NCBI GenBank assembly: GCA_964385945.1
Contig: CAYLQJ010000001.1
Location: forward strand, 8,034-72,033
Reading direction: 5' to 3'
Source of the DNA: an uncultured Candidatus Saccharibacteria bacterium
GTDB taxonomy: Bacteria; Patescibacteriota; Minisyncoccia; Phycocordibacterales; UBA9973
DNA length: 64,000 nt
Shown: one piece after another, positions 13,131 through 48,463 of the stretch
Position numbering within the stretch: the stretch's first letter is position 1
Layout of the letters: the number at the start of each line of letters is the position of its first letter
Notes under the pieces: model-generated
What the model saw: only the letters and a program-made list of their open reading frames with translations
The model's database searches: none
Told to the model about the DNA's origin: nothing
Program-made: the position numbers and the translations under genes

Positions 13131-13283
13131 TTCTCCCGCGACTAAACTTTTTGTCGTCACAAAAAATTTGTCTGGGCACCGACTCATAGATTTTAGTTGC
13201 TACAAAAATCATATTCCGTCGTTCGAATCCATGGCGTAAGCAAAGCAGATTGCTTACTTACCCAGAGCTTCGCTCCGCTCGTG

Positions 13284-13354
13284 CTGGGGTACATGGATTC
13301 GAACCACGATTAAAGGCTTCAAAGGCCTCTGTCCTACCATTAGACGATACCCCA
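13284..13354 (-). tRNA. tRNA-Gln (anticodon UUG)
   Basis: Hand-folded cloverleaf: acceptor TGGGGTA/TACCCCA, D-arm GTCT-AATGGTA-GGAC, anticodon stem GAGGC/GCCTT with loop CTTTGAA, T-arm CGTGG-TTCGAAT-CCATG, discriminator G. Confidence 0.7.
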
Positions 13355-34310: not shown

Positions 34311-34798
34311 TACTTGAATTGTATGCGAATGGAAATATTGAGAGAGCAGATTACTCTAAGAAAAATCAAGAATATGATGCGGAGATAGAGAAGCTTGGAA
34401 ATGAGAAGATTGAACTGGTAAAGCAAATTCCCCTACTGCACAAACCTTCGGTAATCGAATTAAGCATCGCCCAGTACTGCGATGAGGTTAGATCGAGAGC
34501 ACATCAGTGTAAAGATTTTGAAACATACAGACAATTTTTCCTAGACTTCGTAGACCACATTGTGTACTACAAAAATCTAGTTGAACTGCATGGATATGTG
34601 AAAATACAATCAACTAATGAAGATGATCCTGAAACCAGAATCGAATACAAGATCATAACTGAAATCGAATGGGCTGAGAGATTTTCTAACTACAGAAAAA
34701 AGATGAATGGCACCCGCATTAGCTTAATGGACTTCAATAGTATGGTTGGACAGAGCAAGAGGATAATGAAGGATAAAAAGTTATTTTCTAATGAGTAG
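34292..34798 (+). pseudogene. 3' fragment (last ~165 aa) of a large serine recombinase
   Basis: RILELYANGNIERADYSKKNQEYDAEIEKLGNEKIELVKQ...CDEVRSRAHQCKDFETYRQFFLDFVDHIVYY parallels the C-termini of the intact recombinases at 44162-47424. No catalytic domain; in-frame stop at 34283. Confidence 0.7.
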
Positions 34799-35300
34799 AT
34801 ATGTCATTAAAATAAATTTGTTGATCTTTTGGAACATCTGATATGGTTTTATATGCCTTAGTTTCACCAGAAACTGTATCAACAACTAAGTATGTTGGAA
34901 TGTCAGAAACTACCTCATATGAGCTCTCCATCAGTTGTCCATTCTGAAATAATTCCTGATAGTAGGTGTTTTTAATTCCGTCTGACGAACTATTTTTTAT
35001 ATTTTTTTTGTTAATAACGAAGATTTTATTATCAGAATATATATACTGATTTCGGTTATAAACCCTAGCAATTTCATAGTTGTGAATATGATCTTTTATT
35101 GACAGATAGTCCATATCCCAACCATCATTGATCGCGATTACTCCCTGACAATCTACAAAATTTCCCCAATAAGGATAATAACCTTGGCATTTTTCTGCAA
35201 TCTCTTTTTTTGGCACTACAAAGATAAAGTAATACAACAAGGGGATGCTTATTACTAATACAACAACTAAACTAATTATTATTTTTGTCTTTTTAATCAT
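34788..35300 (-). CDS. putative immunity protein of orphan RHS toxin module
   Basis: 170 aa with N-terminal TM helix, 1 nt downstream of the orphan RHS C-terminal domain, which is the canonical immunity position. Confidence 0.4.
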   Translation of the reverse strand: MIKKTKIIISLVVVLVISIPLLYYFIFVVPKKEIAEKCQGYYPYWGNFVDCQGVIAINDGWDMDYLSIKDHIHNYEIARVYNRNQYIYSDNKIFVINKKNIKNSSSDGIKNTYYQELFQNGQLMESSYEVVSDIPTYLVVDTVSGETKAYKTISDVPKDQQIYFNDISTH

Positions 35301-35301
35301 T

Positions 35302-36123
35302 TTATTTCTTTACTTTATCACTAATTTTAATATTTACTCCATAATTACTCAATATTCCGTTTCCTTGATCTTTATATGCCTGAGTTGCTGGTAATCTTGT
35401 AACAGTCCCTTTATATGTCTGTGAATTTGTAGGATTAAAATCATATCTATCTGTTACCGTACTGTTTACTACCCATGCCCCATCTTGCTGTGTTACCTGT
35501 GATTCAATATTTGCTCCGTGAAGTGAATAATACAAATCACTTCTACCCTCAAATTCAAAATCTCCACTATTTGTCATTTGTCCATTTTGGGCACGCTGAA
35601 TAGTTTTGTCTATATAAGATTTATATTGACTAGTTTCCATTATCTTTTCAATTGGATTGCCGTATTGTTTTTGATTGTTTGAATCTATTGTTAAATTATT
35701 TGGTTCGAGAGAAGCAGAGTGTCTCAATAAAGATGCCGAGAATGGTTTATTAAATAGATTACCTGCTAAAGAAAATACATTCCAGCCAATAACGTTTCTA
35801 ATACTTTCTATTGGATTATTTATCAGCGCATCAAAAGAAAGATTGCCGTCTGGATCAGAATACCTAAGTGGATTATTCCTTCCATATGCGTAACTATTTA
35901 ATTGTTGTGGATCTGTTAATAACTCTTCTAAGCTGATTCCGACTTTTTGTCTAATTTTATAGTTATCACCCATTGCTACAAATATGGGATCCTGACTTAT
36001 GAACTGCCCACGGGACCCCTCGTAGTAACGAGCATTCAGGTAGCTTAATCCTGTATCGACATCATATTCTTGTCCAATATAAATGCGATGACCGACACCC
36101 TCAACGCTTTTTCCAGATCTCAC
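35302..36123 (-). CDS. orphan RHS C-terminal module (end of RHS core + variable toxin domain)
   Basis: YIGQEYDVDTGLSYLNARYYEGSRGQFISQDPIF...NSYAYGRNNPLRYSDPDGN is near-identical in pattern to the core end of the 2661-aa RHS protein, followed by a different 178-aa C-terminal domain. Confidence 0.7.
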   Translation of the reverse strand: MRSGKSVEGVGHRIYIGQEYDVDTGLSYLNARYYEGSRGQFISQDPIFVAMGDNYKIRQKVGISLEELLTDPQQLNSYAYGRNNPLRYSDPDGNLSFDALINNPIESIRNVIGWNVFSLAGNLFNKPFSASLLRHSASLEPNNLTIDSNNQKQYGNPIEKIMETSQYKSYIDKTIQRAQNGQMTNSGDFEFEGRSDLYYSLHGANIESQVTQQDGAWVVNSTVTDRYDFNPTNSQTYKGTVTRLPATQAYKDQGNGILSNYGVNIKISDKVKK

Positions 36124-36256
36124 TATATATTAAAAGTCTAGTTTCCTAGTTTGCCAGGTTTGCTCCAAACAATCTATTAGCACTATTTCAGACTTTTTAT
36201 CTCAAAGATCGACATCTCTTAGACCTAACTTATTATAGCAATTTTATAATAAAAAA

Positions 36257-36306
36257 GTGACAAAAGTGACACATCTAGCACTTTAAAGTTACAGTCACGT
36301 GTCACT
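36257..36306. promoter_or_regulatory. cluster of GTGAC(A) direct and inverted repeats upstream of orphan RHS-CT gene
   Basis: GTGACAAAAGTGACAC ... GTCACGTGTCAC, plus TCTAGA/CTAGA repeats nearby; operator-like. Confidence 0.3.
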
Positions 36307-36335
36307 TAAATAGTGAGTCTAGATACTTCAATGTA

Positions 36336-37253
36336 TTACTCAAAACCCACCTTCGGATCTTTGATTATTTTAATAAACTCAAGTCTCTCTTTAAGAGTTT
36401 TTGAGTCTATTTGTGCTTGGTATTCTTCAACTTCACCAACTATTGACGAAGAAAATCCTGTCCTTTTTCTAAGTAAAAAGTGTAGATAATCACCGTCTTG
36501 AGCTGGATCAAGTGGCAGTGATTCTATTGCTTTCATCATTTTAACCCGATCAAGTTCAGGGTTATTTAATAAGAAGATAAGGACTTCCATCATTGTAATT
36601 TCTTCACGCTCAAAAGTAATTTCTTCATCACCCCATACAACTTTTGCAGCCTTAGAAGAACTGTCTGAGAGTTCATAAGTATACAAGTTCTTTGCGGTGG
36701 CTGCTTTATCTATCACGGAATAGAGATCTTTAGCAATTTTTTTTACTGTTTTACCCATAAACTTTTTAACCTGTAAAGAATTTTCGGTACCGATTATGTC
36801 ATTTCTCACATCTATTCCTAAGTGTTTATGAAGAAATGTAAGAAATAACTTTTTATCCTTAGATAAATTATCTATCTGGGGTAAATTAAAACGCCCGTAG
36901 CGATGATCTTCGTAAAATCTAGAAAGAAGCGTGAGTAATCCTGTATGAACAGAACCTAAATCTAGAACAACACTTTTCTTTAGTCTGCTATAGAGAGTAA
37001 TATGATCATGGGTAATTAGAGTTTTTTCAAATTCATCGACATTAGTGTCATCATTAAACTCTACTAGAACAATAGCGACCTTAAACATCCTCTCTAACCC
37101 TATTGAAAGATTATAAAGAACTGGAAATATTTCAGTTTCTAGATTCAGAGTTTCCATCTCGTGAAGATTTCTTAATCCATCATAGATAAAGTTACAAGCA
37201 ATCTCTTGTTCTTCTCCCATCTTAAAGTTTTGCCAAAATTCTCTTGGATTCAT
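36336..37253 (-). CDS. HEPN-motif protein tightly linked to Gabija (possible accessory defence gene)
   Basis: 305 aa; exact Rx4HxY motif RFYEDHRY at ~aa 110; 13-nt gap to gajB stop, same strand. Confidence 0.4.
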   Translation of the reverse strand: MNPREFWQNFKMGEEQEIACNFIYDGLRNLHEMETLNLETEIFPVLYNLSIGLERMFKVAIVLVEFNDDTNVDEFEKTLITHDHITLYSRLKKSVVLDLGSVHTGLLTLLSRFYEDHRYGRFNLPQIDNLSKDKKLFLTFLHKHLGIDVRNDIIGTENSLQVKKFMGKTVKKIAKDLYSVIDKAATAKNLYTYELSDSSSKAAKVVWGDEEITFEREEITMMEVLIFLLNNPELDRVKMMKAIESLPLDPAQDGDYLHFLLRKRTGFSSSIVGEVEEYQAQIDSKTLKERLEFIKIIKDPKVGFE

Positions 37254-37266
37254 ATTCTATAAAAAA

Positions 37267-38295
37267 TTAATTTACTACAAACGCAACACTATGTCTTGCG
37301 CGAGTAATTGCAACATACAACTTACTAATATCTCCGGCTTTAGTATGATCTTTTGTATTCACAAACTGAACCATATTCTTTGTCGGGAAAACCAGAACCC
37401 TATCGTATGTTCTGCCTTTTGACAGCCCTATATTTAGCGCCGTGTGCACTCCAGTTTTTGTTCTTTTATCATACCTAAGCAGAAATGGTTGGTGCTGTTT
37501 AATATATTCATCTAATTCACTTCTTTTAACCAAAAAAATGCCGTCGTGACCAGTTGTCACAGTGTTTTTTGAAGTAGTCTTTGGTAACGCAGGGTAAAGT
37601 AAATCTGCAAGATCACAGATAATCTGATTACACCTGTGGCAGTCAGTCTTTTCTTCGATAATGATATTTCCTTTTTGCTCTTGTTCCTGTAACCAATCGT
37701 AGATTTTTGAGCCTTTATATTTTGAGTTCTTAGATGAATTATTGGTTGCAAAAGTAGATTGTCTAGGGTCACCAACAGCAACTACCTCAATTGCCGAATT
37801 AAAAAGCTCTTCAAAAAAGTTAAGATCGTAACCTGCAAAGTCCTGCAATTCATCAATAAAAATATGGCTGTATATTTTTTCTAACCTTTTAATCACTAAA
37901 CCTCCGCTTTTTAAATTACACTCATATACAAATTCAGATAATTTCGTGCTGTAGATGTAGTTATTTTTTGTAAAATAATCATCTTTCCTGTGAAATCTAC
38001 TGAGAGTGCTTTGAAATAATATTGATTCAACACGAGGAGATGATGACATACAATTTTGATACGGTCTGACACCATCTCTGAGTAAAAAAGTAAACCAAGG
38101 CACTACATATATGTTTTGTGGAATAAATCCATTTTGCTCAATAATGGATTGTTTAATTTGATCAATATTTTCGTTCGTGTATGTTGTAATCAGAACGTTA
38201 GAATCTTTTACTTTTAAAGCTTCACTAACAATAAGAGTAGTTTTTCCAGATCCTGCGCACGCAACCACAGCTTTATTTGATGGCATCTTCGACAT
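37267..38295 (-). CDS. gajB: Gabija GajB-like UvrD/PcrA-type helicase (short form)
   Basis: Walker A VVACAGSGKTTLIV, motif II FIDELQDFAGYD, motif III VAVGDPRQSTF, motif VI LYVAITRARHSVAFVV. The start overlaps the gajA end. Confidence 0.7.
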   Translation of the reverse strand: MSKMPSNKAVVACAGSGKTTLIVSEALKVKDSNVLITTYTNENIDQIKQSIIEQNGFIPQNIYVVPWFTFLLRDGVRPYQNCMSSSPRVESILFQSTLSRFHRKDDYFTKNNYIYSTKLSEFVYECNLKSGGLVIKRLEKIYSHIFIDELQDFAGYDLNFFEELFNSAIEVVAVGDPRQSTFATNNSSKNSKYKGSKIYDWLQEQEQKGNIIIEEKTDCHRCNQIICDLADLLYPALPKTTSKNTVTTGHDGIFLVKRSELDEYIKQHQPFLLRYDKRTKTGVHTALNIGLSKGRTYDRVLVFPTKNMVQFVNTKDHTKAGDISKLYVAITRARHSVAFVVN

Positions 38296-39901
38296 AATCA
38301 GGAAATGTAATAGTGTGTGATGTTTCGAATATCCGAAGAGCACATTCAGTTTTATTACTTTCCATATAATTTAATAAATCGATATCATTTGCGTGTTTCG
38401 TAGAAAAAATATTATTTAAAATAGCCAAGCTGTTTGCTTTGAGCATCTGAGGTTCTAGTGTCTTAGCTGTATCGTCCTCAGAGCGACATATTTTTATGTT
38501 AGTACTCAGTTTGTATGGAGCATATTTTTTATCTACCTTGTTCGCAAAATCACCATCATTATCTGTCACAACACATACATCTTTATTTAGTTTCTCTGCA
38601 ATTTGCAAAAACCTTTCAAAAGACAGACCTCTAACATTAATAACATCAACACCTGCCTCTATCGGCAAAACTCCATGTTTTTGCTTATAGGCTTTTTGAA
38701 CTACAAGCTCGTCTGATGGACCCTCAACAAGAATGGTCTTTTTTGCCAAGACTAGACGCAAAGTGTCGTAACCTGATAGCTTCATGAAATAGTTTTGAGT
38801 ATCTTTAGATAAAGAGGCTAGAGATGTGGATTTATTGCCACTCAGCAATATCAAGTTTTCCAAACCTAATTTATTAAGGACATATGCACTATGCGTCGTA
38901 ATGATGATTTGTTTGCCTGCACACTTCTCGTGGATTTTTGTAATTAAAATATTCATAGAAGAAAAAGAAAGGTGGTTTTCTGGTTCTTCAATGAGAATTA
39001 TATTTGATGCCCCAGCTTTTCGCTCAAGAGCAAGCATTATTTTAAGTGCGTTTTGTTCTCCCTTTCCTACCATTTGGAATGGTAGCTGATCTAGGTGAGG
39101 TATAAGGTTTGTCTCCCAGTTTGTTTTTTGAGACATATCTATGGATATAGATAAATCCTTTTGGGTAATGGCGGCTTTCTTACTCGTCAGCTTTCCGTTA
39201 ATTGTTCCAATGGAGGGTTCTTTGGAAAAGATTTCTTTCAACTTACGAAAAGCAACACTTAGCCCTACTCGCTCCTTTGGATCTAGGTCTGTTTTGATAA
39301 TATCCTGAAGATAATAGTCAGTACCATTTTGAAGCCTAATATTTGTTGCGTCTATGTATGACAACCGTAGGGGTAAACTTCGGAGCGTTATTGCATTATT
39401 TGCAAAAGAGTACCAATGTATTTTGTAATACTCAGAAGGTATTAGATCTAAATCACTAGCCGAAGTTTTGATTAAATTCTCGTACTCCTCTTTATAATCT
39501 TCGTCAAAAACTATTTCTATTTTAACACCAATGGAATCCTCATTTTTTGAGTTCATTTTACCCCTTAAATATTCTAGGTCGGGACTGTCACCTAAATAGA
39601 GTTCTATAATTATTTCAGGCAATGATGCAGTTTTTCCACCCTTAATAGCAGTGATGTAGTCGTCTACACACTTTTTATTAAAAAGATAAGGAGATAATTC
39701 ATTCTCGATAGCTCTACCGTTCAGCTTCTTAGTAGATGCTAAATTGATAGCTTCAAGGATTGTTGATTTACCAACCTCATTATCTCCCACAAGAATATTC
39801 AAATTATCATTCAACTCTAGGTCGAAGTTATCAAAGATTTTGTAGTTTTTAATATAAATTTTTTTAATCATAGAAACTAAGCAAGATAGAGCTACCTGCA
39901 C
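38273..39901 (-). CDS. gajA: Gabija GajA-like OLD-family ATP-dependent endonuclease (ABC ATPase + TOPRIM)
   Basis: Walker A GDNEVGKSTILEAI, ABC-like HLSFSS and Walker B IILIEEPENHL, C-terminal TOPRIM ILVEGPSDE...VCVVTDNDGD. Confidence 0.75.
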   Translation of the reverse strand: MQVALSCLVSMIKKIYIKNYKIFDNFDLELNDNLNILVGDNEVGKSTILEAINLASTKKLNGRAIENELSPYLFNKKCVDDYITAIKGGKTASLPEIIIELYLGDSPDLEYLRGKMNSKNEDSIGVKIEIVFDEDYKEEYENLIKTSASDLDLIPSEYYKIHWYSFANNAITLRSLPLRLSYIDATNIRLQNGTDYYLQDIIKTDLDPKERVGLSVAFRKLKEIFSKEPSIGTINGKLTSKKAAITQKDLSISIDMSQKTNWETNLIPHLDQLPFQMVGKGEQNALKIMLALERKAGASNIILIEEPENHLSFSSMNILITKIHEKCAGKQIIITTHSAYVLNKLGLENLILLSGNKSTSLASLSKDTQNYFMKLSGYDTLRLVLAKKTILVEGPSDELVVQKAYKQKHGVLPIEAGVDVINVRGLSFERFLQIAEKLNKDVCVVTDNDGDFANKVDKKYAPYKLSTNIKICRSEDDTAKTLEPQMLKANSLAILNNIFSTKHANDIDLLNYMESNKTECALRIFETSHTITFPDYVEDAIK

Positions 39902-40257
39902 TATTATTTTAGCATTTTTTGCTTGATTTTTCTATCTTTCATTGTCTTTTGTTTTGTTGTTTATTTACCTCTGGAGCATGGGATCCCTGCCAAGGATTCT
40001 TGCACACAATTAACTTCTACTAATCTATTCTTTTATTTACTAAAAATATTTCGATTGGTAATAATATCCATTTATATAAGGATATTTTCAATAATATGCT
40101 ACTGAACACTCGCAACTAAAGAGTGTAATTTGATTAGTCGACATCCATTTAAATTCTATCTACCTAGTATTCTGATTATGTAACACATGGTTGTCATTTT
40201 TTCTAGAAAAGTGACTTTCAAGAAGTTGCATTATTAGTAATCTTTAATAAATATTTT

Positions 40258-41538
40258 ATGAAAAAAGAAGAATTAAGATGGGCTGTAGACATTCGCAAGC
40301 TCACAATATTAAAAAATTGGAAAGAAAATCCTAGAACGATAACTAAGGTGGCTTTAGAAAAGCTAAAAGAAAGAATCGTACAGCGTGGTTTCCATAGCGT
40401 CATTGTTATTGATACAGATAACACGATACTCTCTGGAAATCAGCGAGGGTTGGCTCTAAGACAACTTGGAATTAAGGAAGTAAATGTATTAGTTCCAAGC
40501 CGTAAATTAACTACTGAAGAAAGAAGAAAAATAGCTCTTGAGAGTAATTTAAACGATGGAGAATGGAATATGGAAGCTTTGAAGTCGTTTAATATAGATT
40601 TGCTAACTGATGTCGGATTTGACCAAATGAAGCTAGTTGAGTTTTGGGACAAAGATACCGAAATAAAAGAAGAATCATTTGATCTAAAGAAAGAAATAAA
40701 GCTTGCTCAAAAAACAAACATAAAACGAGGTAATATGTACCAACTCGGTAGACATCGTTTAATTTGCGAGGACGCTTTGAACCCCAATACAGTTCTAAAA
40801 TTAATGGGTAAAGTAAAGGCAGACCTTATAAATCAGGACCCCCCATTCAACATAAATTTATCATATGACAAGGGTGTTGGTGGGAAGAAAAGTAATAAGA
40901 ACTATGGTGGTCAAACCCAAGATAATATGAGCGATGAGGGCTATGCTGACTTCATTAGAAAGATGATGAAGAATGCACTTTCTGTTTCAAAAAAAGATTG
41001 TCACTATGCCTACTGGAGCGATGAACGGTTCGTCTGGATTTTTCAGACCTTATACAAAGAACTCGGTATTGCTTCAAAGAGACTACTTATATGGGCAAAA
41101 AACAACGCTTCACCAACGCCACAGGTGGCTTTCAATAAAGCTACCGAGTATGTGGTCTATGGAACAATTGGATCTCCTTATCTTTCACCTAATGTTCAAA
41201 ATGCTAATGAAATTATAAATCACGATACAACTACTGGAAACAACTTACTTGAAGAACTAAGTAATATAATTCTCCAAAAAAGACTACCAAGTAACCAGTA
41301 CTCACACCCCACGCAGAAGGATCCGCATGTTCACTATAAGATACTTAAGCGTTGTACAAAGATTGGTGACGCTGTGCTTGATTTAACGGCTGGGTCTGGG
41401 AGCATAATGTCTGCTTGTGAACAATTAGGTCGAACTGCCTATATGTGTGATTACGAACCTGTATTTTGTCAGGTAATTTTGAATAGGTATAAAAAAATGA
41501 CTGGGCTTAATCCAATACAAATCTATGAAGAAAAATAA
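40258..41538 (+). CDS. ParB-like nuclease domain / DNA methyltransferase fusion (N6-A or N4-C, beta class)
   Basis: N-terminal ParB domain ILSGNQRGLALRQLG; motif IV DPPF (INQDPPFNIN) precedes motif I DLTAGSGS. This is the arrangement usual upstream of phage terminase genes. Confidence 0.8.
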   Translation: MKKEELRWAVDIRKLTILKNWKENPRTITKVALEKLKERIVQRGFHSVIVIDTDNTILSGNQRGLALRQLGIKEVNVLVPSRKLTTEERRKIALESNLNDGEWNMEALKSFNIDLLTDVGFDQMKLVEFWDKDTEIKEESFDLKKEIKLAQKTNIKRGNMYQLGRHRLICEDALNPNTVLKLMGKVKADLINQDPPFNINLSYDKGVGGKKSNKNYGGQTQDNMSDEGYADFIRKMMKNALSVSKKDCHYAYWSDERFVWIFQTLYKELGIASKRLLIWAKNNASPTPQVAFNKATEYVVYGTIGSPYLSPNVQNANEIINHDTTTGNNLLEELSNIILQKRLPSNQYSHPTQKDPHVHYKILKRCTKIGDAVLDLTAGSGSIMSACEQLGRTAYMCDYEPVFCQVILNRYKKMTGLNPIQIYEEK

Positions 41539-41920
41539 ACTGCAAGATAAGTTTTTTGAAGAACTAAGAAATGTTCCTATTGTTCAAGTAGGATGTGAGA
41601 AAACAGGAATTTCTAGAAATAGTGTATATCGTTGGAAAAAAGAAGATAAAACTTTCGCAAAGAAAATGGATCAAGCTCTTGCTGATGGAGTTACCTTTGT
41701 TAGCGATATGAGTGAGAGTCAACTATTGACTTTGATTAAAGAGAAGGATTATAGAGCTATTAGCTTTTGGCTAAAACATAGAAATGATAACTACAAAAAT
41801 AAGGTTGAATTATCTGGAACAATACATACAAAGGAAGAACCTTTAACAAAAGACCAAAAGAAAGTAATTCGAGAAGCTTTAAGGTTATCATCACTAAAAA
41901 GCTATGCCAAAAAGAAATAA
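41525..41920 (+). CDS. terminase small subunit-like HTH protein
   Basis: HTH VQVGCEKTGISRNSVYRWKKEDKTFAKKM; overlaps the methyltransferase end and TerL start. Confidence 0.5.
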   Translation: MKKNKLQDKFFEELRNVPIVQVGCEKTGISRNSVYRWKKEDKTFAKKMDQALADGVTFVSDMSESQLLTLIKEKDYRAISFWLKHRNDNYKNKVELSGTIHTKEEPLTKDQKKVIREALRLSSLKSYAKKK

Positions 41921-43355
41921 TGAAAATGAAATACTATTTGAGCGTGTTTTAAAGGATCAGAGATTACGCCAGGAGCTTGTTAAAAAGAGTCTTGAATTCT
42001 TCTTCCCAATATACATGCATGAATATATAGGATATGAAACCGCACCATTTCATAAAGAGTTATTTCGTATTCTCCAAAATGAAAAACACAAACTTGCCGT
42101 TATTACTGCATTTCGAGGATCTGCTAAATCAACAATAGTAACAACGGCATATGTTCTGTGGTCTATTCTTGGTATACAGCAGAAGAAGTTTATTATTATC
42201 TGTTCACAAACAGAAGTAAAAGCTAGACAGCACTTAATGAACATAAAAAATCAACTTCTTCATAATGAGCTTTTAAAAAAAGACTTAGGACCATTTGAAG
42301 AAGAGAAAAATAACTTAGGTAATGCTACAGCAATCATTATTAAGCGAATGAATGTCAAAATAATGATTTGCTCAATTGAACAAAGTATTCGTGGAATGCG
42401 TCATGATCAACACCGTCCTGATCTTATCATCCTGGATGACATTGAGGATTTAGATTCTGTTAAAACCAAAGAAGGTCGTAATAAGAGTTTTGATTGGCTT
42501 ACAGGTGATATTATTCCTGCAGGTACTAGAAAAACTCGTATTATTGCTATTGGAAACTTGCTTCATGAAGACTGCGTATTAAAACGCTTAGAGAGAAAAA
42601 TAGAAAATGGTGAGATGAACAGAATGAATGGTATTTATCGTGAGTACCCAATTGTTGATACTAAGGGCAACCCACTTTGGATTGGTAAATATCCAACTCA
42701 TGAATCTATTGAAGAAGAACGAGAGAAAACTATGAATGATATCGCTTGGCACAGAGAGTATTTGCTTAAAATAATTTCAAGTGATGAGCAGATTGTAAAG
42801 AAAGAGTGGATTAAATTTTACAATACACTTCCTGCTGATGGATTTAGGGGTATCTGTATCGGAGTAGATTTGGCTATTGGAGAAAAAGAAACGAATGACT
42901 GTACCTCTATGGTTACTGGGTATGTTTATGGTGTCGGAAAGAAGATGAGAATATATATCCGTCCAAAACCATTCAATTCAAGAGTCTCATTTCCTGAACA
43001 AGCTGAATATTTGGCTAGTCTTATAGCGAGAGAAAAGGTCACGCACAACAGAGTAAAAGTATATGTCGAAGATGTTGGATACCAAAGGGCGTTAGTGCAG
43101 TATTTTGACAGCAACAAGTACGACATAGAAGCCGTACCAGTTGGAAGAATGAGCAAATCTTTAAGATTGCAACTAACAACACCACTTCTAAAAGAAAGTA
43201 GAGTTCTATTTCAAGAAGAAGGATGTGAAGAGCTTGTCGAGCAATTGCTTGGATTCGGGAAAGAGAAACACGATGATCTAGTAGATGCATTTTCCTTGCT
43301 CGTGATGAAAGTTATTGAGAATAACCCTAATGGATCAGGGATTCTTGTGGGGTAA
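41904..43355 (+). CDS. phage terminase large subunit
   Basis: Deviant Walker A VITAFRGSAKST, Walker B LIILDDIED, RNaseH-like nuclease acidic residues (GVDLAIGEKETNDCTS, HDDLVDAFSLLV). Confidence 0.75.
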   Translation: MPKRNNENEILFERVLKDQRLRQELVKKSLEFFFPIYMHEYIGYETAPFHKELFRILQNEKHKLAVITAFRGSAKSTIVTTAYVLWSILGIQQKKFIIICSQTEVKARQHLMNIKNQLLHNELLKKDLGPFEEEKNNLGNATAIIIKRMNVKIMICSIEQSIRGMRHDQHRPDLIILDDIEDLDSVKTKEGRNKSFDWLTGDIIPAGTRKTRIIAIGNLLHEDCVLKRLERKIENGEMNRMNGIYREYPIVDTKGNPLWIGKYPTHESIEEEREKTMNDIAWHREYLLKIISSDEQIVKKEWIKFYNTLPADGFRGICIGVDLAIGEKETNDCTSMVTGYVYGVGKKMRIYIRPKPFNSRVSFPEQAEYLASLIAREKVTHNRVKVYVEDVGYQRALVQYFDSNKYDIEAVPVGRMSKSLRLQLTTPLLKESRVLFQEEGCEELVEQLLGFGKEKHDDLVDAFSLLVMKVIENNPNGSGILVG

Positions 43356-43814
43356 ATTATTAATTAAATCTCTTAATTCATCTAGTTTCTTTTTTATCTC
43401 ATACGGATGAGCTACATGTTGTAAGATTATTTCTTTACCACCTGATCCCGCTGTGTTTATATACAACTGTCCACTTTTAGTAAAACTTTTATCCAAGAAA
43501 GATTCTTTCACTGTAACATCTGTTATTTTACTGTAATCTACACTCACTAAATCTGTCGAGAAAAAGCCTCTATGTATTAGGACTCTTTTATTTGTAAATC
43601 CATAAATATTTGCCTTTGGTAAGTAAACTTTTAGATACAGGTAAGCAATTGCAAATACAAAGGGGGCTAGAAAAACGGTGCACAAACTAATAATTCCCCA
43701 AATAATAAGATATGTCTTTATGTACTGACTTCCTATTGAAAACTCATATTTAAGTTCTTCGTTTGAACTAAGAACTTTGCTCCAAACTTGCTCGTTGCGA
43801 TTTTGGTTATTCAT
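43335..43814 (-). CDS. bacterial PH-domain (bPH_2/YdbT-like) membrane protein
   Basis: One TM hairpin followed by FTNKRVLIHRGFFSTDLVSVDYSKITDVTV, a PF03703-like pattern. Confidence 0.55.
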   Translation of the reverse strand: MNNQNRNEQVWSKVLSSNEELKYEFSIGSQYIKTYLIIWGIISLCTVFLAPFVFAIAYLYLKVYLPKANIYGFTNKRVLIHRGFFSTDLVSVDYSKITDVTVKESFLDKSFTKSGQLYINTAGSGGKEIILQHVAHPYEIKKKLDELRDLINNLPHKNP

Positions 43815-44161
43815 AATTTTTTTCTTGCGTATTATTTATAATTCTAGGGTAAGACGCAAAAAGCCTACCACTAGGTAGAGTCTTGCGACTCATATATCCG
43901 TTTCCAGATATAACGCAACGAGCGACCCTAGTGATAGGTTCTTTATGCTCGTTGCGATTTGCAACCATATCCTTAAGAAATCTTAAGGGGTTAGGTCGAC
44001 TGTATTTAGTTGTAAATGAATAATAACATTTTCGACCCTATTATTCAATCAACATTGTATCGCTGATACATAGTTTTGCTAAGGGTAATATCGCGAGTAT
44101 GCGACATATTTTTAGTTCTGCATAGCTATACACCACCCACCAGTCTGTCATTAATATATGT
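43815..44161. promoter_or_regulatory. 345-bp non-coding region upstream of tandem recombinases, rich in palindromes (candidate att/regulatory region)
   Basis: Inverted repeats GCAACGAGC (43915-43923) and GCTCGTTGC (43947-43955); palindrome CCTTAAGAAATCTTAAGG (43971-43988); nested hairpin AGACGCAA..CCTACC-ACT-AGGTAG..TTGCGACT at ~43850-43895. Confidence 0.35.
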
Positions 44162-45754
44162 ATGGAAAAAGCAGTATTGTATGCAAGAGTAAGTTCAGAT
44201 ATACAACAAAAAGAGCGGTCAATTGATAGTCAAATCGCGGAACTTAAGAAACAAATTACCAGTACTGGTAACAAGCTTGTAATGGAGTATATTGATGACG
44301 GTTATAGTGGTGCCTTACTCGACCGACCTGCTATGAATCAACTTCGTGAGGATCTAAAAACGGATAAATTTCAAGTTATTTACATACTGAATACTGACCG
44401 TATCGCACGCGACGTTACTTATCAAAATATAATCGTTGGGGAAATTTTAAGATACAAGAAACAACTCATCATTAATGGAAAAGATTATATTCATAATCCA
44501 GAGAACAAATTTACACTTACAGTGTTAGGAGCCGTATCTGAACTTGAAAGAGCCAAACTAATTGAGCGTACGACTCGTGGTAGACAACATAGACTCAAGC
44601 AAGGCCATCTAATGAGTAACGGATGGCAAACATATGCATATCGATATATTAAAAAATCAGCTACTGCTTTTCCTTCTTACGAGATCATTAGAGAAGAAGC
44701 TGATGTGGTCAAGTATATCTTCGAGACGTATGCAAATGGAAAAATTGGTATACAGTCAATAGCTATTCAACTTGAAGCAATGGGAGTCCCTAAAATCAAA
44801 GGGAGAAATTGTCTTAATCAATCTCAACTGAAAGCCATCCTAAAGAACGAGATGTATACAGGAATCAGATATTTCAACACAATGAAAACTGTGAAGATTG
44901 GCGACCCAATGAAGAAGCAGGTCAAAAGAAAAGAATATACAAATAGAGCCGAGTGGATAGGAATTAAAGTGCCAACAATTATCTCGAAGGAATTATATGA
45001 CAAAGTGCAGATAAAACTTGCATATAATTATTCCAACTGGAGGAACTCAAAACGAGTCCAACTTCTCTCAAATCTGGTCTGTTGTGGGAAATGTGATTCA
45101 AAATGTTTTTCATATAAACGACCTAGAGAAAAATTTGCATACAAGTGCAACAATAGAAAAATTGGGGTTCATAACCCAGAAATTAATGTCAAACAGCTTG
45201 AATCTACTGTATGGGAAATGATTGAGGAGATTATACTTGATCCCAAAAAACTCTATTCTTCGATAGAAATATTAAAGAGAAGAAGTCGAACAAATCATGG
45301 ACGAATCGAAATTAAAATAAAGGATATTGAAAAACAGATATCTGATTTATCAAACCAGAAAAAAAGAATCATAGACTTGTATGCATCTGGAAGTCTCGAA
45401 AAGGATGAATCGGCAACCAGAATAAATAATTACGACAAGAGTATTAAAAAAATAAAATCCGAGAAAATCGAGCTATTAAAATACCTTCCCCTCTTTGAAA
45501 AGTCTGACCTCATTCAAGAAAACGTCAGAACTTACTGCGAAAAGGTGCGTGCAAGATTTAATAAGTGTGCTGATTTTGAAACACAAAGACAGTTTCTTAT
45601 GGATTACATAAGCAAAGTGACTTTCTACAGAAAAGGTAAAAAATATAGCAGGATAAGAATATATGGATCAGTACCGATCAGCTACATAAATAATGAAGAT
45701 GTCATTCCTGTCGGGTTTAAATTTGAGAAAGTCTTAACCGAATCAAAACTATGA
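44162..45754 (+). CDS. large serine recombinase (resolvase catalytic domain + recombinase domain + zinc ribbon)
   Basis: AVLYARVSSDIQQKERSIDSQ catalytic Ser, DRIARD, recombinase domain, CCGKCDSKC...YKCNNRK ribbon, coiled-coil tail. Confidence 0.9.
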   Translation: MEKAVLYARVSSDIQQKERSIDSQIAELKKQITSTGNKLVMEYIDDGYSGALLDRPAMNQLREDLKTDKFQVIYILNTDRIARDVTYQNIIVGEILRYKKQLIINGKDYIHNPENKFTLTVLGAVSELERAKLIERTTRGRQHRLKQGHLMSNGWQTYAYRYIKKSATAFPSYEIIREEADVVKYIFETYANGKIGIQSIAIQLEAMGVPKIKGRNCLNQSQLKAILKNEMYTGIRYFNTMKTVKIGDPMKKQVKRKEYTNRAEWIGIKVPTIISKELYDKVQIKLAYNYSNWRNSKRVQLLSNLVCCGKCDSKCFSYKRPREKFAYKCNNRKIGVHNPEINVKQLESTVWEMIEEIILDPKKLYSSIEILKRRSRTNHGRIEIKIKDIEKQISDLSNQKKRIIDLYASGSLEKDESATRINNYDKSIKKIKSEKIELLKYLPLFEKSDLIQENVRTYCEKVRARFNKCADFETQRQFLMDYISKVTFYRKGKKYSRIRIYGSVPISYINNEDVIPVGFKFEKVLTESKL

Positions 45755-47424
45755 AAAAAGCAGTTCTCTATGCTCGCGTAAGTACAGATATTCAACAAAA
45801 AGAAGGTACTATTGAAAGCCAGGTAGTTGCACTTAAACAGCAAATCGTAGATAACGGAGATGTATTAGTGAAAGAGTACATAGATGCAGGACATAGTGGT
45901 GCTAAGATAGACAGACCAGCACTTGATCAATTGCGAAAAGACCTGAAGACAGATCTCTTCGACTCTATCTATTTCTTAAACACTGACCGTATAGCTCGTG
46001 ATGTTACATATCAAAACATCATCATTACAGAGGTACTTAAATACAAGAAGCAGATAATTATTAATGGAAAAGACTATATTCATAACTCAGAAAATAAATT
46101 TGAGCTGACCGTTCTGGGAGCTGTCGCAGAACTTGAAAGAGCAAAGATGATTGAACGCAGTATGCGTGGAAAGCAACACAAACTACGGAATGGATTTCTG
46201 CTCAGTCACGGATACAACATATATGGATATAACTATATTCCGCGATTCGGTGACTCACCTGCTCGACTGGATATTAACGAAAAAGAAGCATGGGTAATTC
46301 GATATGTCTTTGAGACGTATGCATCAGGAGAAATGAGTTGGGCTGGAATCATACGAGATCTTGAAAAAATGGGAGCAACAACAAAGAAAGGCAATAAACA
46401 CTGGCCTCAACATCAAGTTCGGCAAATTCTAAAAAATTCAACATATTCAGGAGTCCGATATTTCAATAAATGCAGACACGTAAAGACAGAATCGAGTCCA
46501 TTGCGTAAAATAAAATATGGCAAGAAAGTATATCGTGATAAATCTGAATGGATCGCAGTGAAAGTTCCTGCAATTGTGTCTAAAGTCCTCTTTGACAAAG
46601 TGCAGAAGAAAATGGAAGAAAGCAGTAGTAAGTACAAAAGTCCTAAACAAGTGCAACTACTTTCTAACCTTGTTCGTTGTGGAGAATGCGGACGTTTTTG
46701 TATTGCCTACCGCCGTTATATGCGACACTACTACAAATATAAAGGCGTGACGAAGAAAGTGACAGGCAACGTATATTACAAAGCGGCTTATAAATGCAAT
46801 CGACGTTGGATGGATCGGGTTCATTTAAAAACTTTGGATATTAAGCGTTGCACTAATCCTGAGGTATCGGTTCGAGTACTTGATCCAGTAATCTGGAATA
46901 TGGTTGAAGAGAAAATATTGAATCCGAAAGAACTAAAGAAACATCTAGTTGATTGGGAATCAGACGTTAAATCAGTTCAAACTAAAATGGAGAAAAAGCT
47001 AAGAAAATTAGATCAAGAGGAACAATATCTAAAAAGTAATAGAGAAGAAACACTAGAACAATACGCGATAGGAAAATTAGATCATAAGATATATCTAGAG
47101 AAATGTCTTACTTACGACATTGAAACAAATCGCTTAAAACTAGACAGAGATCAAGTTACCAAAAAGATTCCAATCTTACACAAGAAAGAAGTTATAGAAG
47201 CAAATATAAGATTCTTTTGTGGTTCTGCCCAGATTCGATTTGATAAATGTAAGACTTTTGATAACAAGCGAAGATTTGTTTTAGATTTGGTTGAAGAAAT
47301 TCTTTATAACCATGGAAAAGTTATTTTGAAAGGCTCAGTACCATTACAACTAAAAACAACCGAAAATTCTGATTCTCAAGAACAAGAAAAAATCAGTTTT
47401 TCTATAGAGAAAAATATCAAATAG
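45751..47424 (+). CDS. large serine recombinase, paralogue of upstream gene (tandem pair, 4-nt overlap ATGA)
   Basis: AVLYARVSTDIQQKEGTIESQ, DRIARD, CGECGRFC...YKCNRR ribbon; ~50% similar to the upstream gene. Confidence 0.9.
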   Translation: MKKAVLYARVSTDIQQKEGTIESQVVALKQQIVDNGDVLVKEYIDAGHSGAKIDRPALDQLRKDLKTDLFDSIYFLNTDRIARDVTYQNIIITEVLKYKKQIIINGKDYIHNSENKFELTVLGAVAELERAKMIERSMRGKQHKLRNGFLLSHGYNIYGYNYIPRFGDSPARLDINEKEAWVIRYVFETYASGEMSWAGIIRDLEKMGATTKKGNKHWPQHQVRQILKNSTYSGVRYFNKCRHVKTESSPLRKIKYGKKVYRDKSEWIAVKVPAIVSKVLFDKVQKKMEESSSKYKSPKQVQLLSNLVRCGECGRFCIAYRRYMRHYYKYKGVTKKVTGNVYYKAAYKCNRRWMDRVHLKTLDIKRCTNPEVSVRVLDPVIWNMVEEKILNPKELKKHLVDWESDVKSVQTKMEKKLRKLDQEEQYLKSNREETLEQYAIGKLDHKIYLEKCLTYDIETNRLKLDRDQVTKKIPILHKKEVIEANIRFFCGSAQIRFDKCKTFDNKRRFVLDLVEEILYNHGKVILKGSVPLQLKTTENSDSQEQEKISFSIEKNIK

Positions 47425-47447
47425 TAATTATTACTAAGCTAGAAAAA

Positions 47448-47978
47448 TTAAAACTGGATTCCAGAAATTAAATAGTTTAGTAAATCTCTTGTATCTGAAT
47501 CGTTGATTTGTACTTCTTTGTTTTTGTACCAAGAACAAAGTTCTTTATTGGAATTAATGAAAAAATCTTTAATTTCTATTGTTTTAACTTTAGCACTTGA
47601 GTCTTCCGATATTTGTAATAAATATTCTGTGTTTACTTTTTTAACGTAAAAGATATTATTATTCTTGAAATAGTAACTAACTTCTGATTTTCCTGTTTCA
47701 CCAAAAAAGATTTGTTTGATAAAAACAATTTTTCCATCTAGTGTGTAATTTGTTTGTTCCCCTCCCTCAGTAGACTGTCCAAATATATCTTTCGTAGTAA
47801 ATGCATAATTTTTTGTATTTTTTTCAATATTCTCAGCTATGCTATAACTATCTGTTACAGGACTATTGTCACACGAAGTAGATAAATTTTTTGGTGTTAA
47901 ATTATAATGTCTGTACATTGGATAGCCAGAAATAATAACGATTAGCAATATAGTTAATGATATTGTAAGTTTTTTCAT
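47448..47978 (-). CDS. putative secreted/lipoprotein immunity-like protein downstream of RHS toxin
   Basis: 176 aa with signal peptide; second gene after the RHS C-terminal domain. Confidence 0.4.
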   Translation of the reverse strand: MKKLTISLTILLIVIISGYPMYRHYNLTPKNLSTSCDNSPVTDSYSIAENIEKNTKNYAFTTKDIFGQSTEGGEQTNYTLDGKIVFIKQIFFGETGKSEVSYYFKNNNIFYVKKVNTEYLLQISEDSSAKVKTIEIKDFFINSNKELCSWYKNKEVQINDSDTRDLLNYLISGIQF

Positions 47979-48090
47979 ATTTATTACTTTAATGTCTTAA
48001 GTAAACTTTTATTGACTGCCCAAAACTAATTTCAAGGCGTGGATAGTCAATATATCCTGCCAACAATTTAGTAAGATTTTTCTTAAATAA

Positions 48091-48462
48091 TTATTTCTTT
48101 ATTTGAAAACTTGTTAACTCTGGCTCCCATGGTCCATTACATGATTTATGTGTTAATTTTAGATCCTTGTTAAATATAAAAGCAACTCCGGTATTACTGA
48201 CCCATTTTTCGCTTACATATGGTACAGATAAATGAATTTCTTCATTATTAATACGAACTGTAGGATAGTATTTATTTAATTTTTCTGAAACCACTACAAA
48301 ATCATCAGAAATATTTATAGTATTACAGACTTCAATTAAATCAAGACTTTTTCCTTTGTTCAATTTAAAATTTATATTTTCTTGATGCAAATTAAGAATT
48401 ACAGCCAAAAGAATATTTTCGATAATAAGTATCACTACAAATAACATTATATAATTTTTCAT
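48091..48462 (-). CDS. putative immunity protein of RHS toxin
   Basis: 123 aa, N-terminal TM helix, start 1 nt after the RHS stop. Confidence 0.4.
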   Translation of the reverse strand: MKNYIMLFVVILIIENILLAVILNLHQENINFKLNKGKSLDLIEVCNTINISDDFVVVSEKLNKYYPTVRINNEEIHLSVPYVSEKWVSNTGVAFIFNKDLKLTHKSCNGPWEPELTSFQIKK

Positions 48463-48463
48463 A

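What the first reader, a model, noticed from the sequence alone, without database searches (positions are those of the whole stretch)
36124..47447. About 11-kb phage-like integrative island carrying defence, packaging and tandem serine-recombinase genes but no virion structural genes
The block contains the HEPN gene, GajB and GajA on the minus strand. On the plus strand it has a ParB-domain/DNA methyltransferase fusion, a TerS-like HTH protein and TerL. It also has a PH-domain membrane protein, a 345-bp palindrome-rich non-coding region, and two paralogous large serine recombinases overlapping by ATGA, a CcrA/CcrB-like tandem. No capsid, portal or tail genes are present. This resembles a satellite, PICI-like or defective prophage that packages with a helper, or a serine-recombinase integrative element that has captured terminase genes. 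It sits exactly between an rhs toxin gene with its immunity genes and an orphan rhs-CT module.
Basis: partly seen in the sequence, partly recalled or inferred. Interest (0 to 1): 0.6.

Follow-up and report, generated by a model that had tools for sequence, protein, structure and literature searches.

The report
Mobile island that swaps Rhs toxin tips
The flagged block is a real mobile island of an uncultured ultra-small (CPR-like) bacterium, but it is about 13 kb, not 11 kb. It ends inside the neighbouring rhs toxin gene, so its paired serine recombinases most likely install a new toxin tip with its immunity genes and push the old tip downstream.

Summary
The listed genes are all present. Two items change. 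The "HEPN" call could not be verified. The "palindrome-rich" spacer is a LOOT RNA (Rfam RF03000, 84.6 bits).

The island is not a decayed prophage. Its methyltransferase–TerS–TerL–LOOT backbone recurs at 89–98% identity in more than ten other contigs. Those contigs have different flanks, different defence cargo (Gabija, CBASS, Hachimoji, R-M) and a different recombinase. None has virion genes.

The window's recombinase pair belongs to a large clade named after CPR/Patescibacteria lineages. That clade lies next to rhs core-end fragments in 15 of 18 contigs long enough to judge.

One metagenome contig (L067) is 98.8% identical to the window from 49295 to 47891: rhs tip, immunity gene and part of the next gene. 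Upstream of 49295 the two sequences are unrelated. The orphan tip's rhs homology starts at the matching position (36081 ↔ 49297), directly after a motif conserved at ten such junctions.

The element is therefore about 36082–49297 and carries the active rhs tip. Integration into rhs displaced the older tip, which still abuts a recombinase remnant. Recombinase catalysis, a circular form and packaging by a helper phage are inferred, not shown.

The parts
36082..36251 (-). Left terminal segment of the element. It ends in the conserved junction motif GGAAAAAGCGTTGAGGGTGTCGGTCATCGC (36115-36086), a candidate att half-site, directly before the orphan's rhs homology.
   Evidence: Similarity to the related elements L052/L054 stops at 36252. 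The motif recurs at orphan-rhs 5' boundaries in L013, L014, L022, L026, L028 and L038. It is also present in L024, which was predicted by PWM and then confirmed, and in L065/66.
36336..37253 (-). It is a conserved left-end backbone gene.
   Evidence: It is 74-75% identical to the 308-aa protein at the same position in L052 (with a long-type Gabija) and in L054/55 (with Hachimoji). No family hit was found.
37267..38286 (-). GajB, short type (Gabija helicase)
   Evidence: PADLOC PDLC00148, 1.4e-118, profile positions 2-354 of 369. The 339-aa gene call comes from contig L006.
38273..39901 (-). GajA (Gabija OLD-family ATPase/TOPRIM nuclease)
   Evidence: PADLOC PDLC00102, 3.2e-212, profile positions 2-530 of 532. 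Pfam AAA_15 plus OLD-like_TOPRIM.
40258..41538 (+). ParB-N nuclease-like domain fused to an N6/N4 DNA methyltransferase (backbone)
   Evidence: Pfam N6_N4_Mtase; phrog_498 at 2.8e-75 and ParB-like phrogs. 92-97% aa identity in L051-L060.
41525..41920 (+). TerS-like HTH protein (backbone)
   Evidence: PHROG TerS families 4044, 4102, 309 and 2538; weak Pfam HTH_Tnp_1_2 and AlpA hits. It is conserved next to the methyltransferase even in relatives that lack TerL.
41904..43355 (+). Terminase large subunit (backbone)
   Evidence: phrog_38 at 5.5e-79; NCBIfam termin_lrg_T7 at 5e-17. Its 90%-identity cluster has 31 members. Identity to TerL of cultured phages is at most 27%.
43335..43814 (-). Small single-TM bPH_2 membrane protein, sitting in the variable slot downstream of LOOT
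   Evidence: Pfam bPH_2 at 5.7e-11. In relatives this slot holds unrelated small ORFs, mostly with one TM helix.
43854..44048 (-). LOOT RNA (Rfam match 43997-43877), with a conserved upstream -10-like box and an extra conserved 3' hairpin
   Evidence: RF03000, 84.6 bits, E 4e-15. Found in 14 related loci.
44162..45754 (+). Large serine recombinase LSR1
   Evidence: Resolvase + Recombinase + Zn_ribbon_recom. A separate orthologue group from LSR2 across CPR MAGs, at 44-55% identity.
45751..47424 (+). Large serine recombinase LSR2
   Evidence: Same three domains. 463 relatives at E<=1e-60, named Falkowbacteria, Doudnabacteria, Parcubacteria and Patescibacteria.
47448..47978 (-). 176-aa protein, probably a second immunity or accessory gene of the tip cassette
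   Evidence: Part of the 98.8%-identical block shared with L067, down to 47891 where that contig ends. A weak NuiA (nuclease-inhibitor) hit at E 0.013.
48091..48462 (-). Putative immunity gene of the active tip (123-aa ORF; called as 118 aa in the contigs)
   Evidence: Its position directly after the rhs stop. Shared with L067.
48464..49297 (-). Element-borne 3' end of rhs: the last YD repeat (IGQEYD...), the NSYAYARNNP...DPTG core end, and a toxin tip of about 210 aa of unknown type
   Evidence: Protein P0053 is about 100% identical from IGQEYD to the end and about 45% identical upstream. At the DNA level, L067 755-2159 matches window 49295-47891 at 98.8%, with nothing upstream.
49298..56449 (-). 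Resident rhs body (SpvB, FG-GAP, RHS repeats, Gly-rich and Ig-like insert), the integration target
   Evidence: Pfam. 37-44% identical to the rhs genes that converge on the recombinases in L012-L014.
35302..36123 (-). Displaced orphan rhs tip (273 aa); its rhs homology starts at 36081
   Evidence: blastn aligns 36081-35987 with 49297-49203 at 74%. Protein alignment. All 107 homologues are short orphan-type proteins.
34788..35300 (-). 170-aa gene following the orphan tip (presumed immunity)
   Evidence: Its position. No family hit.
34292..34798 (+). C-terminal remnant of an older large serine recombinase that abuts the orphan module
   Evidence: 35-38% identical to residues ~400-553 of LSR1 and LSR2 and to their orthologues.

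Best explanation
The feature is an integrative mobile element of about 13.2 kb (window ~36082-49297) in a genome that is probably Patescibacteria/CPR. It has three modules.

1. A conserved backbone: the 305-aa protein, the ParB-methyltransferase, the TerS-like protein, TerL, a small membrane protein and the LOOT RNA. This backbone is 89-98% identical to elements found elsewhere.
2. Exchangeable defence cargo, here a short-type Gabija.
3. An integration module. It consists of the paired large serine recombinases LSR1 and LSR2, an rhs toxin tip with its immunity gene or genes, and a 170-bp terminal segment ending in a conserved motif.

Proposed mechanism:
- A circular form joins 49297 to 36082. 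This creates an attP made of the motif followed by the 5' end of the element's own rhs fragment.
- The recombinases cross this site with the matching position of a chromosomal rhs gene, at the last YD repeat (..Y|IGQEYD..).
- The crossover fuses the resident rhs body in frame to the incoming tip. The previous tip and its immunity gene move downstream as an orphan, now preceded by the motif.
- Repeated rounds build an orphan array in which older units decay. Here the older unit survives as a recombinase remnant, a 170-aa gene and the 273-aa orphan.

Shown: the gene content; the recurrence and mobility of the backbone; the association of the recombinase clade with rhs; the sharp, coincident breakpoints; and the junction motif.

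Inferred: that the recombinases catalyse the crossover; that the circle exists; and that TerS/TerL (with LOOT or the methyltransferase) package the element into capsids of an unknown helper phage.
For: Backbone mobility
- TerL's 90% cluster has 31 members.
- L051-L063 carry methyltransferase-TerS-TerL at 89-94% nt identity to window 39904-43365. Their flanks differ, and so does their cargo: CBASS, long Gabija, Hachimoji or a 752-aa protein.
- Their left ends are sharp, at L054 position 2924 and L058 positions 5580-82.
- IMG/VR relatives (43-54% TerL identity) show the same architecture with R-M or nuclease cargo and no structural genes.

Association of the recombinase clade with rhs
- Tandem LSR1/LSR2 orthologues, or a single one, lie 1-1.4 kb from the 3' end of a converging rhs gene, or next to orphan rhs fragments. 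This holds in Kaiserbacteria, Doudnabacteria and Saccharibacteria MAGs and in metagenome contigs, 15 of 18 contigs that are long enough.
- None of 7 loci with the other recombinase type has an rhs fragment.

Breakpoints
- L067 matches the window at 98.8% from 49295 to 47891 and at 0% upstream. The protein is about 100% identical after IGQEYD and about 45% identical before it.
- Homology between the orphan and the main gene starts at 36081 ↔ 49297, 2 nt from the L067 breakpoint.

Junction motif
- A conserved motif of about 20-30 nt directly precedes the rhs homology at ten independent orphan junctions.
- The best non-training PWM hit in 1.24 Mb (L024) turned out to precede another ARYY...NSYSYALNNP fragment.

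One contiguous swap in the circle
- Relative to L052/L054, the window-specific DNA is 44067-49297 plus 36082-36251.
- These two stretches form one block only if 49297 is joined to 36082.

Other support
- Nothing is conserved after the recombinase stop codons. There are only terminator hairpins.
- Orphan tips stay attached to recombinase genes or remnants in the window, in L011 and in L065/66.
- Main gene and orphan are only 74% identical across the shared core end, with no long identical run. That is poor substrate for RecA.
- Both recombinases keep their catalytic residues.
Against: - No excised circle and no empty site were observed. A search of IMG/VR for the predicted attP found nothing.
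- L067 ends inside the 176-aa gene. It proves where the tip cassette begins but not that the cassette is linked to the recombinases in that genome.
- The rhs position joined to the motif differs among lineages (YIGQ, LNARY, YTYAG), although the motif itself is conserved. A single att specificity does not easily explain this.
- No convincing inverted-repeat arms and no second motif copy were found.
- In L026 the recombinase pair lies at the orphan side and the backbone lies to its right, so the internal order is not fixed.
- No recombination directionality factor or replication gene was identified.
- The packaging role is pure inference. Several relatives have the TerS-like gene but no TerL.
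- The host taxon is inferred only from the names attached to homologues.
Confidence: 0.62

Rival explanations
1. The island is the 11.3-kb unit the first reader drew (36124-47447). It would be inserted by its recombinases into the spacer between the immunity genes of the active rhs and a pre-existing orphan tip. The rhs tips would have changed independently, by classical displacement.
For: - The recombinases sit at one end, as in many integrative elements.
- In the sister family with the 439-aa recombinase, that gene also lies near the right side.
- L067 does not show linkage between the tip and the recombinases.
Against: - No repeats or conserved sequence lie at 47425-47447 or after any orthologous recombinase stop.
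- Immunity genes are hypervariable, so half of such an attB would have nothing constant to recognise.
- The conserved motif abuts the rhs homology itself.
- In the sister family, shared DNA continues past the recombinase gene (L054 14320 ↔ L052 14333), so a recombinase gene need not be terminal.
- This reading needs two unrelated processes to explain a pattern repeated in at least 12 loci.
Confidence: 0.15
2. Tip replacement here is RecA-mediated C-terminal displacement through a circular intermediate that carries a core fragment (the Jackson et al. 2009 model). The recombinases would only excise or mobilise the element, or would be passengers.
For: - The outcome, an orphan array with core fragments of varying length, is the one this model was built to explain (PMC2935791).
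- Short and long orphan classes exist.
Against: - Homologous crossovers should fall at varied points inside the shared fragment. Instead the L067/window breakpoint lies at the very 5' edge of the fragment. It coincides within 2 nt with the start of orphan homology and the end of the motif.
- Core ends are only 74% identical.
- Three copies in the L029/30 array share one sharp boundary.
- A recombinase clade dedicated to rhs contexts across CPR classes is hard to explain as a passenger.
Confidence: 0.15
3. It is a defective prophage that has lost its structural genes.
For: - The methyltransferase-TerS-TerL order is typical of the start of a phage late operon.
- IMG/VR classifies some relatives as viral contigs.
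Against: - The same gene set without portal, capsid or tail genes recurs in at least 14 contigs at 43-98% TerL identity. TerL is followed directly by a small variable gene, LOOT and a recombinase.
- The genes are intact.
- No structural genes occur anywhere in the window flanks that were examined.
Confidence: 0.04

Closest known systems
Rhs C-terminal displacement and orphan tip arrays (Jackson et al. 2009, PMC2935791)
   Same: A new tip with its immunity gene replaces the expressed tip. The old tip, still carrying a piece of core, is shunted downstream. A circular intermediate is implied.
   Different: [quoted passage not shown] Here a dedicated pair of large serine recombinases travels with the tip. 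The breakpoint is sharp and marked by a motif. The carrier is a 13-kb element that also bears defence and terminase genes.
SCCmec and other SCC elements with CcrA/CcrB (own knowledge)
   Same: Both have two anciently paired large serine recombinases. Both integrate into the 3' end of a conserved gene while keeping it functional. Both show tandem or composite arrays and accessory cargo.
   Different: The target is rhs, not rlmH. The element replaces the functional end of the protein rather than restoring it. It carries terminase genes and LOOT RNA. Its hosts are CPR lineages, not staphylococci.
Phage satellites (SaPI/PICI, PICMI; own knowledge)
   Same: It is a small integrative element with its own TerS-like gene (here also TerL), no virion genes and anti-phage cargo. 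Some relatives carry only the TerS-like gene, as SaPIs do.
   Different: No replication module, repressor/AlpA circuit or capsid-remodelling genes were recognised. It has serine rather than tyrosine integrases. No helper phage is known, and induction and packaging are untested.
LOOT RNA motif (Rfam RF03000; from Weinberg et al. 2017, PMC5737381)
   Same: It is a full-length, high-scoring match to the covariance model.
   Different: Rfam files it as an sRNA. No functional description of it was found in the papers searched. Here it is a fixed part of a mobile-element backbone. It lies between TerL and the recombinase, with a conserved -10-like box, an extra conserved 3' hairpin and a variable small membrane-protein gene downstream.
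Integrons (own knowledge; cited as a precedent in PMC2935791)
   Same: A site-specific recombinase captures promoterless cassettes at a fixed site so that the newest is expressed and older ones remain as an array.
   Different: The recombinase is a serine rather than a tyrosine type. It travels with the cassette instead of staying at the platform. Insertion is an in-frame gene fusion. There are no attC-like repeats.

Membership tests
Gabija defence system | Adjacent GajA (ABC-ATPase plus OLD-type TOPRIM) and GajB (UvrD-like helicase) genes | tested here: met
   PADLOC GajA at 3e-212 and GajB at 1e-118, both near full profile length and overlapping in one operon. Pfam AAA_15/OLD-like_TOPRIM and UvrD-helicase.
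Large serine recombinases | N-terminal resolvase catalytic domain with the nucleophilic serine, plus recombinase and zinc-ribbon domains | tested here: met
   All three Pfam domains are present in both proteins. The YxRVS serine and other catalytic residues are invariant across nine orthologues.
SCC-type (CcrAB) element | Integration at the 3' end of rlmH (orfX) with short direct repeats | tested here: not met
   The flanks are rhs sequences. No rlmH gene is present and no exact direct repeats were found.
SCC-type (CcrAB) element | Two co-transcribed, anciently diverged serine recombinase paralogues | tested here: met
   LSR1 and LSR2 are 43% identical, overlap by ATGA, and form separate orthologue groups in L011, L012, L014, L020 and L064-66.
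Prophage (intact or defective) | Portal, capsid and tail genes, or their remnants, within the att-bounded unit | tested here: not met
   None in the window. None in at least 14 related loci.
Phage satellite (PICI/SaPI-like) | Integrase plus packaging-redirection gene(s), no virion genes, size about 5-15 kb | tested here: met
   Recombinases, the TerS-like protein and TerL are present, structural genes are absent, and the size is 13.2 kb.
Phage satellite (PICI/SaPI-like) | Own replication module and a helper-responsive repressor | tested here: not met
   No primase, helicase-rep or repressor family was found among the element's proteins in Pfam, PHROGs or NCBIfam. Divergent proteins cannot be excluded.
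Phage satellite (PICI/SaPI-like) | Induction by, and packaging into particles of, a helper phage | not testable with these tools
   This needs experiments or virome reads. TerL has no close relative among cultured phages (at most 27% identity).
LOOT RNA (RF03000) | Score above the Rfam gathering threshold over the full model | tested here: met
   84.6 bits against 46.4, model positions 1-121 of 121.
Rhs polymorphic toxin with orphan tips | RHS/YD-repeat shell, a conserved core end (..NSYxYxxNNP..DPxG) followed by a variable tip and a small downstream gene, and 5'-truncated tip copies downstream | tested here: met
   Pfam SpvB/FG-GAP/RHS_repeat. Core-end alignment of eight main and orphan copies. 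Orphan at 35302-36123.
   An RFYEDH motif is present. There is no family or PDB match even at E<=10, and the structure model is too poor to search (pLDDT 39).

The most novel reading that the evidence does not exclude
A large CPR-wide clade of paired large serine recombinases is a dedicated machine for exchanging Rhs toxin tips. Each recombinase pair travels with a promoterless tip and immunity cassette. It inserts the cassette in frame into resident rhs genes at a motif-defined site. This supplies the integrase-driven circular-intermediate mechanism that the 2009 displacement model lacked. In many cases the cassette rides on a terminase- and LOOT-RNA-bearing, defence-loaded, satellite-like element. 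One transfer event would then change a cell's weapon, its immunity and its anti-phage repertoire together.
Probability: 0.5. Interest if true: 0.85.

Novelty: new variant of a known kind. Interest (0 to 1): 0.75.

Why it matters
How Rhs and other polymorphic toxins acquire new tips has been explained by homologous recombination with hypothetical circles. No recombinase was known to be linked to them (PMC2935791).

This locus and about 20 relatives give a concrete, testable alternative. They provide a recombinase pair, a candidate att motif and a base-pair-level breakpoint.

It also gives the orphan LOOT RNA a genomic home. It defines a widespread family of defence-carrying, terminase-bearing integrative elements in ultra-small CPR bacteria, whose mobile elements are little described. 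Finally, it points to site-specific serine integrases with in-frame, gene-fusing targets, which could interest tool builders.

Tried and rejected
Direct and inverted repeat searches over 33-50 kb found only the diverged rhs core-end pair.
- **tRNA target.** Only tRNA-Gln (13.3 kb) and tRNA-Leu (29.0 kb) are present, and both are far away.
- **Contig breaks as a sign of inversion or excision.** Same-strain metagenome contigs break around 43.4-44.0 kb. However, a JGI contig spans that region (L010), and Logan contigs break in many places, so the breaks are uninformative.
- **Empty site.** Exact-protein look-ups of the flanking genes returned only the same strain carrying the island.
- **Second or inverted copy of the junction motif.** None was found in the window or the loci.
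- **Conserved site after the recombinase stop codons.** None was found.
- **Predicted attP junction in IMG/VR.** No match.
- **TerL in IMG/VR as a single query.** No hit. A search with an alignment found only same-family elements.
- **HEPN assignment.** Family, PDB and structure-prediction routes all failed.
- **The motif as a ribosome-binding site plus start codon, or as a coding leader.** Rejected, because the reading frames contain stops and lack in-frame start codons in most loci.
- **LOOT literature.** The main text of Weinberg 2017 does not discuss it and no supplement was held.

Full report
**1. What is in the sequence**

ORF listing and family searches confirm the gene map. On the minus strand:
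- a 305-aa protein at 36336-37253
- GajB at 37267-38286
- GajA at 38273-39901

On the plus strand:
- a ParB-N/N6_N4 methyltransferase at 40258-41538
- a TerS-like HTH protein at 41525-41920
- TerL at 41904-43355

Then follow a bPH_2 membrane protein on the minus strand (43335-43814), a 347-bp spacer, and two large serine recombinases. LSR1 is at 44162-45754 and LSR2 at 45751-47424. They overlap by ATGA and are 43% identical.

To the right, all on the minus strand, lie a 176-aa gene, a 123-aa gene and a 2661-aa Rhs protein with SpvB, FG-GAP, RHS repeats and a Gly-rich/Ig insert. To the left lie a 273-aa orphan rhs tip and a 170-aa gene.

- The 305-aa "HEPN" protein matches nothing in Pfam, NCBIfam, PADLOC, PHROGs or the PDB. 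Its single-sequence model is unusable, and only an RFYEDH (Rx4H) motif is visible.
- The "palindrome-rich" spacer holds a full-length LOOT RNA (RF03000) at 43877-43997 on the minus strand, at 84.6 bits against a threshold of 46.4.
- ORF 34292-34798(+) is the C-terminal ~150 residues of another large serine recombinase.

No repeats flank 36124/47447. GC content does not set the block apart.

**2. Host and relatives of the recombinases**

A scan of species-representative genomes with LSR1 found its closest relatives (44-55% identity) only in CPR MAGs: Kaiserbacteria, Doudnabacteria and Saccharibacteria. A protein search with LSR2 gave 463 relatives at E<=1e-60, with source names from Falkowbacteria, Doudnabacteria, Parcubacteria and Patescibacteria. 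Homologues of the rhs tips carry similar names.

The window is therefore probably from a CPR bacterium. That is an inference. LSR1 and LSR2 form separate orthologue groups, so the pair is ancient. Both keep the catalytic serine.

**3. The recombinase clade lives at rhs genes**

I mapped the window's proteins onto the MAG loci and onto 31 metagenome loci. The usual pattern is:
- the recombinase or recombinases on one strand
- one or two small genes converging on them
- then the 3' end of a full-length rhs gene 1-1.4 kb away (L012, L013, L014, L020, L022, L023, L032, L033, L038, L040)
- a 5'-truncated rhs fragment on the other side of the island (window, L012, L014, L022, L026, L032, L033, L038), or directly abutting the recombinase gene (L026, L027, L028)

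Same-strand arrays occur in L029-31 and L035. An rhs core-end fragment is present in 15 of the 18 contigs that are long enough to judge. None of seven loci with a different recombinase type has one.

Orphan tips remain attached to recombinase genes or remnants in the window, in L011 and in L065/66.

**4. The backbone is a separate, highly mobile module**

TerL's 90%-identity cluster has 31 members. Contigs carrying them (L051-L063) share methyltransferase-TerS-TerL at 89-94% nucleotide identity with window 39904-43365. They differ in three ways:
- They have an unrelated 439-443-aa serine recombinase, 23% identical to LSR1/2.
- They have a different gene in the slot after TerL.
- Their left-hand cargo differs: CBASS, a long-type Gabija, Hachimoji, or a 752-aa protein.

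Their flanks differ beyond sharp common left ends. A terminal stretch of ~100-120 bp is shared among them.

The 305-aa protein is 74-75% identical to the gene that sits at the left end next to either Gabija or Hachimoji. It is therefore a backbone gene, not a Gabija component.

More distant TerL relatives in IMG/VR (43-54% identity) show the same architecture with type I R-M, methyltransferase or nuclease cargo. TerL of cultured phages is at most 27% identical. None of these loci has portal, capsid or tail genes. The absence of virion genes is thus a stable property, which rules out a decayed prophage.

**5. LOOT RNA**

LOOT is found in 14 related loci, with either recombinase type, always with the methyltransferase-TerS(-TerL) backbone.
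- A conserved TATAAT-like box lies ~25-30 nt upstream.
- One more conserved hairpin follows the Rfam model.
- In most loci an unrelated small ORF follows on the same strand within ~90 nt, usually with one TM helix. In the window this is the bPH protein.

This suggests a transcribed leader or small RNA that heads a variable "moron" slot. Its function is unknown. I found no functional description of it.

**6. Where the element ends**

Left end:
- Similarity to L052/L054 stops at 36252, after the terminator of the 305-aa gene.
- The next 170 bp are specific to the window. They end in GGAAAAAGCGTTGAGGGTGTCGGTCATCGC (36115-36086).
- Directly after this motif the orphan's homology to rhs begins, with 36081 aligning to 49297.
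- Variants of the motif occupy the same place at orphan 5' boundaries in L013, L014, L022, L026, L028, L038 and L065/66.
- A weight matrix built from seven of these sites gave, as its best other hit in 1.24 Mb, a site in L024. That site proved to precede another ARYY...NSYSYALNNP fragment.

Right end:
- Protein P0053, from an unrelated contig (L067), is about 100% identical to the window's Rhs from IGQEYD to the C-terminus. It is only ~45% identical before that point.
- At the DNA level, L067 755-2159 matches window 49295-47891 at 98.8%, up to the end of that contig. There is no similarity upstream.
- The same tip, immunity gene and start of the 176-aa gene have therefore recently been joined to two different rhs bodies. 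The breakpoint lies 2 nt from the position marked by the motif in the orphan.
- Nothing is conserved after the recombinase stop codons.

A further check: relative to L052/L054, the window-specific DNA is 44067-49297 plus 36082-36251. These stretches form one contiguous block only in a circle that joins 49297 to 36082.

I therefore place the element at ~36082-49297 (13.2 kb).

**7. Mechanism**

The simplest account is site-specific integration of a circular element into rhs at the last YD repeat.
- Integration fuses the resident body to the incoming tip.
- It displaces the old tip, which acquires the motif at its 5' edge.
- The older unit to the left (recombinase remnant, 170-aa gene, 273-aa orphan) records an earlier round.

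This is the outcome described by Jackson et al. 2009. [quoted passage not shown]

Homologous recombination fits poorly here.
- The core ends are 74% identical, with no long identical run.
- The breakpoints sit at the extreme 5' edge of the shared fragment rather than inside it.
- Three copies in the L029/30 array share one sharp boundary.

Literature searches found no report linking serine recombinases to Rhs tip exchange.

**8. What remains uncertain**

- No circle or empty site was seen.
- L067 ends before it can show linkage to the recombinases.
- The motif is joined to different rhs positions in different lineages (YIGQ, LNARY, YTYAG).
- I found no clear inverted-repeat arms.
- Gene order inside the element varies, as in L026.
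- Catalysis by LSR1/LSR2 is an inference. So are the need for both proteins, any directionality factor, and the role of TerS/TerL, the methyltransferase and LOOT in helper-dependent packaging.

**9. Verdict**

It is a satellite-like serine-recombinase element, not a defective prophage. The important feature was missed: the island ends inside rhs and carries the active toxin tip.

It is a new variant of known kinds (Rhs displacement and serine-recombinase integrative elements). It offers a testable, recombinase-based mechanism and a first genomic context for LOOT RNA.

Noticed in passing
window 58269-59988 (+): A third, distant large serine recombinase lies upstream of the rhs gene. It is split into two overlapping ORFs: a resolvase domain of 201 aa, and recombinase plus Zn-ribbon domains of 391 aa. 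That suggests a frameshift or pseudogene. It is only ~25-30% identical to the other recombinase types. In L033 a second LOOT copy sits in a comparable position upstream of rhs.
   Followed up: partly
window 12222-12267: This 46-bp intergenic stretch is 87% identical to part of the conserved left-terminal segment of the sister elements with the 439-aa recombinase (L052 2855-2900). It lies ~1 kb from tRNA-Gln (13283-13354). In L052 and L051 a tRNA gene lies to the right of the element. It may be an att-like site or an old scar.
   Followed up: partly
window 43854-43879 (-), and the same position in 12 other loci: A further conserved hairpin lies immediately 3' of the Rfam LOOT model. Its stem is CUGGYGG...CCRCCAG and its loop is conserved (GGGCUUUNUG). 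A conserved TATAAT-like box followed by TTTACAAnTTAAT lies upstream. The family model may therefore be incomplete at both ends.
   Followed up: partly
L067 249-1586 (protein P0053); L014 19-1653: These are 'mini-Rhs' proteins. They join an Rhs-like N-terminal leader (signal-peptide-like, GGFLGDTRD region) directly to the last ~110-330 residues of the core and a tip, so they lack most of the shell. They may be expressed orphan forms or products of internal deletion.
   Followed up: no
protein searches: All listed homologues of the rhs core end and tips are short: all 107 hits in one search and the 120 best of 361 in the other, at 150-724 aa. No full-length Rhs appears, not even the window's own. 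Either orphan-type fragments greatly outnumber full genes in CPR metagenomes, or the word-based candidate step disfavours very long proteins.
   Followed up: no
L054/L055/L056/L063, right of the 439-aa recombinase gene: Several independent assemblies end within ~250 bp after this recombinase gene. In L052 and L054 the shared DNA runs on into a cupredoxin-like gene. In L052 a copper-resistance cluster follows, as far as tRNA-Gln. The right boundary of the sister family is unresolved.
   Followed up: no
window 29177-30688 (+): An EPSP-synthase domain protein carries an N-terminal Cro/C1-type HTH domain, an unusual fusion.
   Followed up: no
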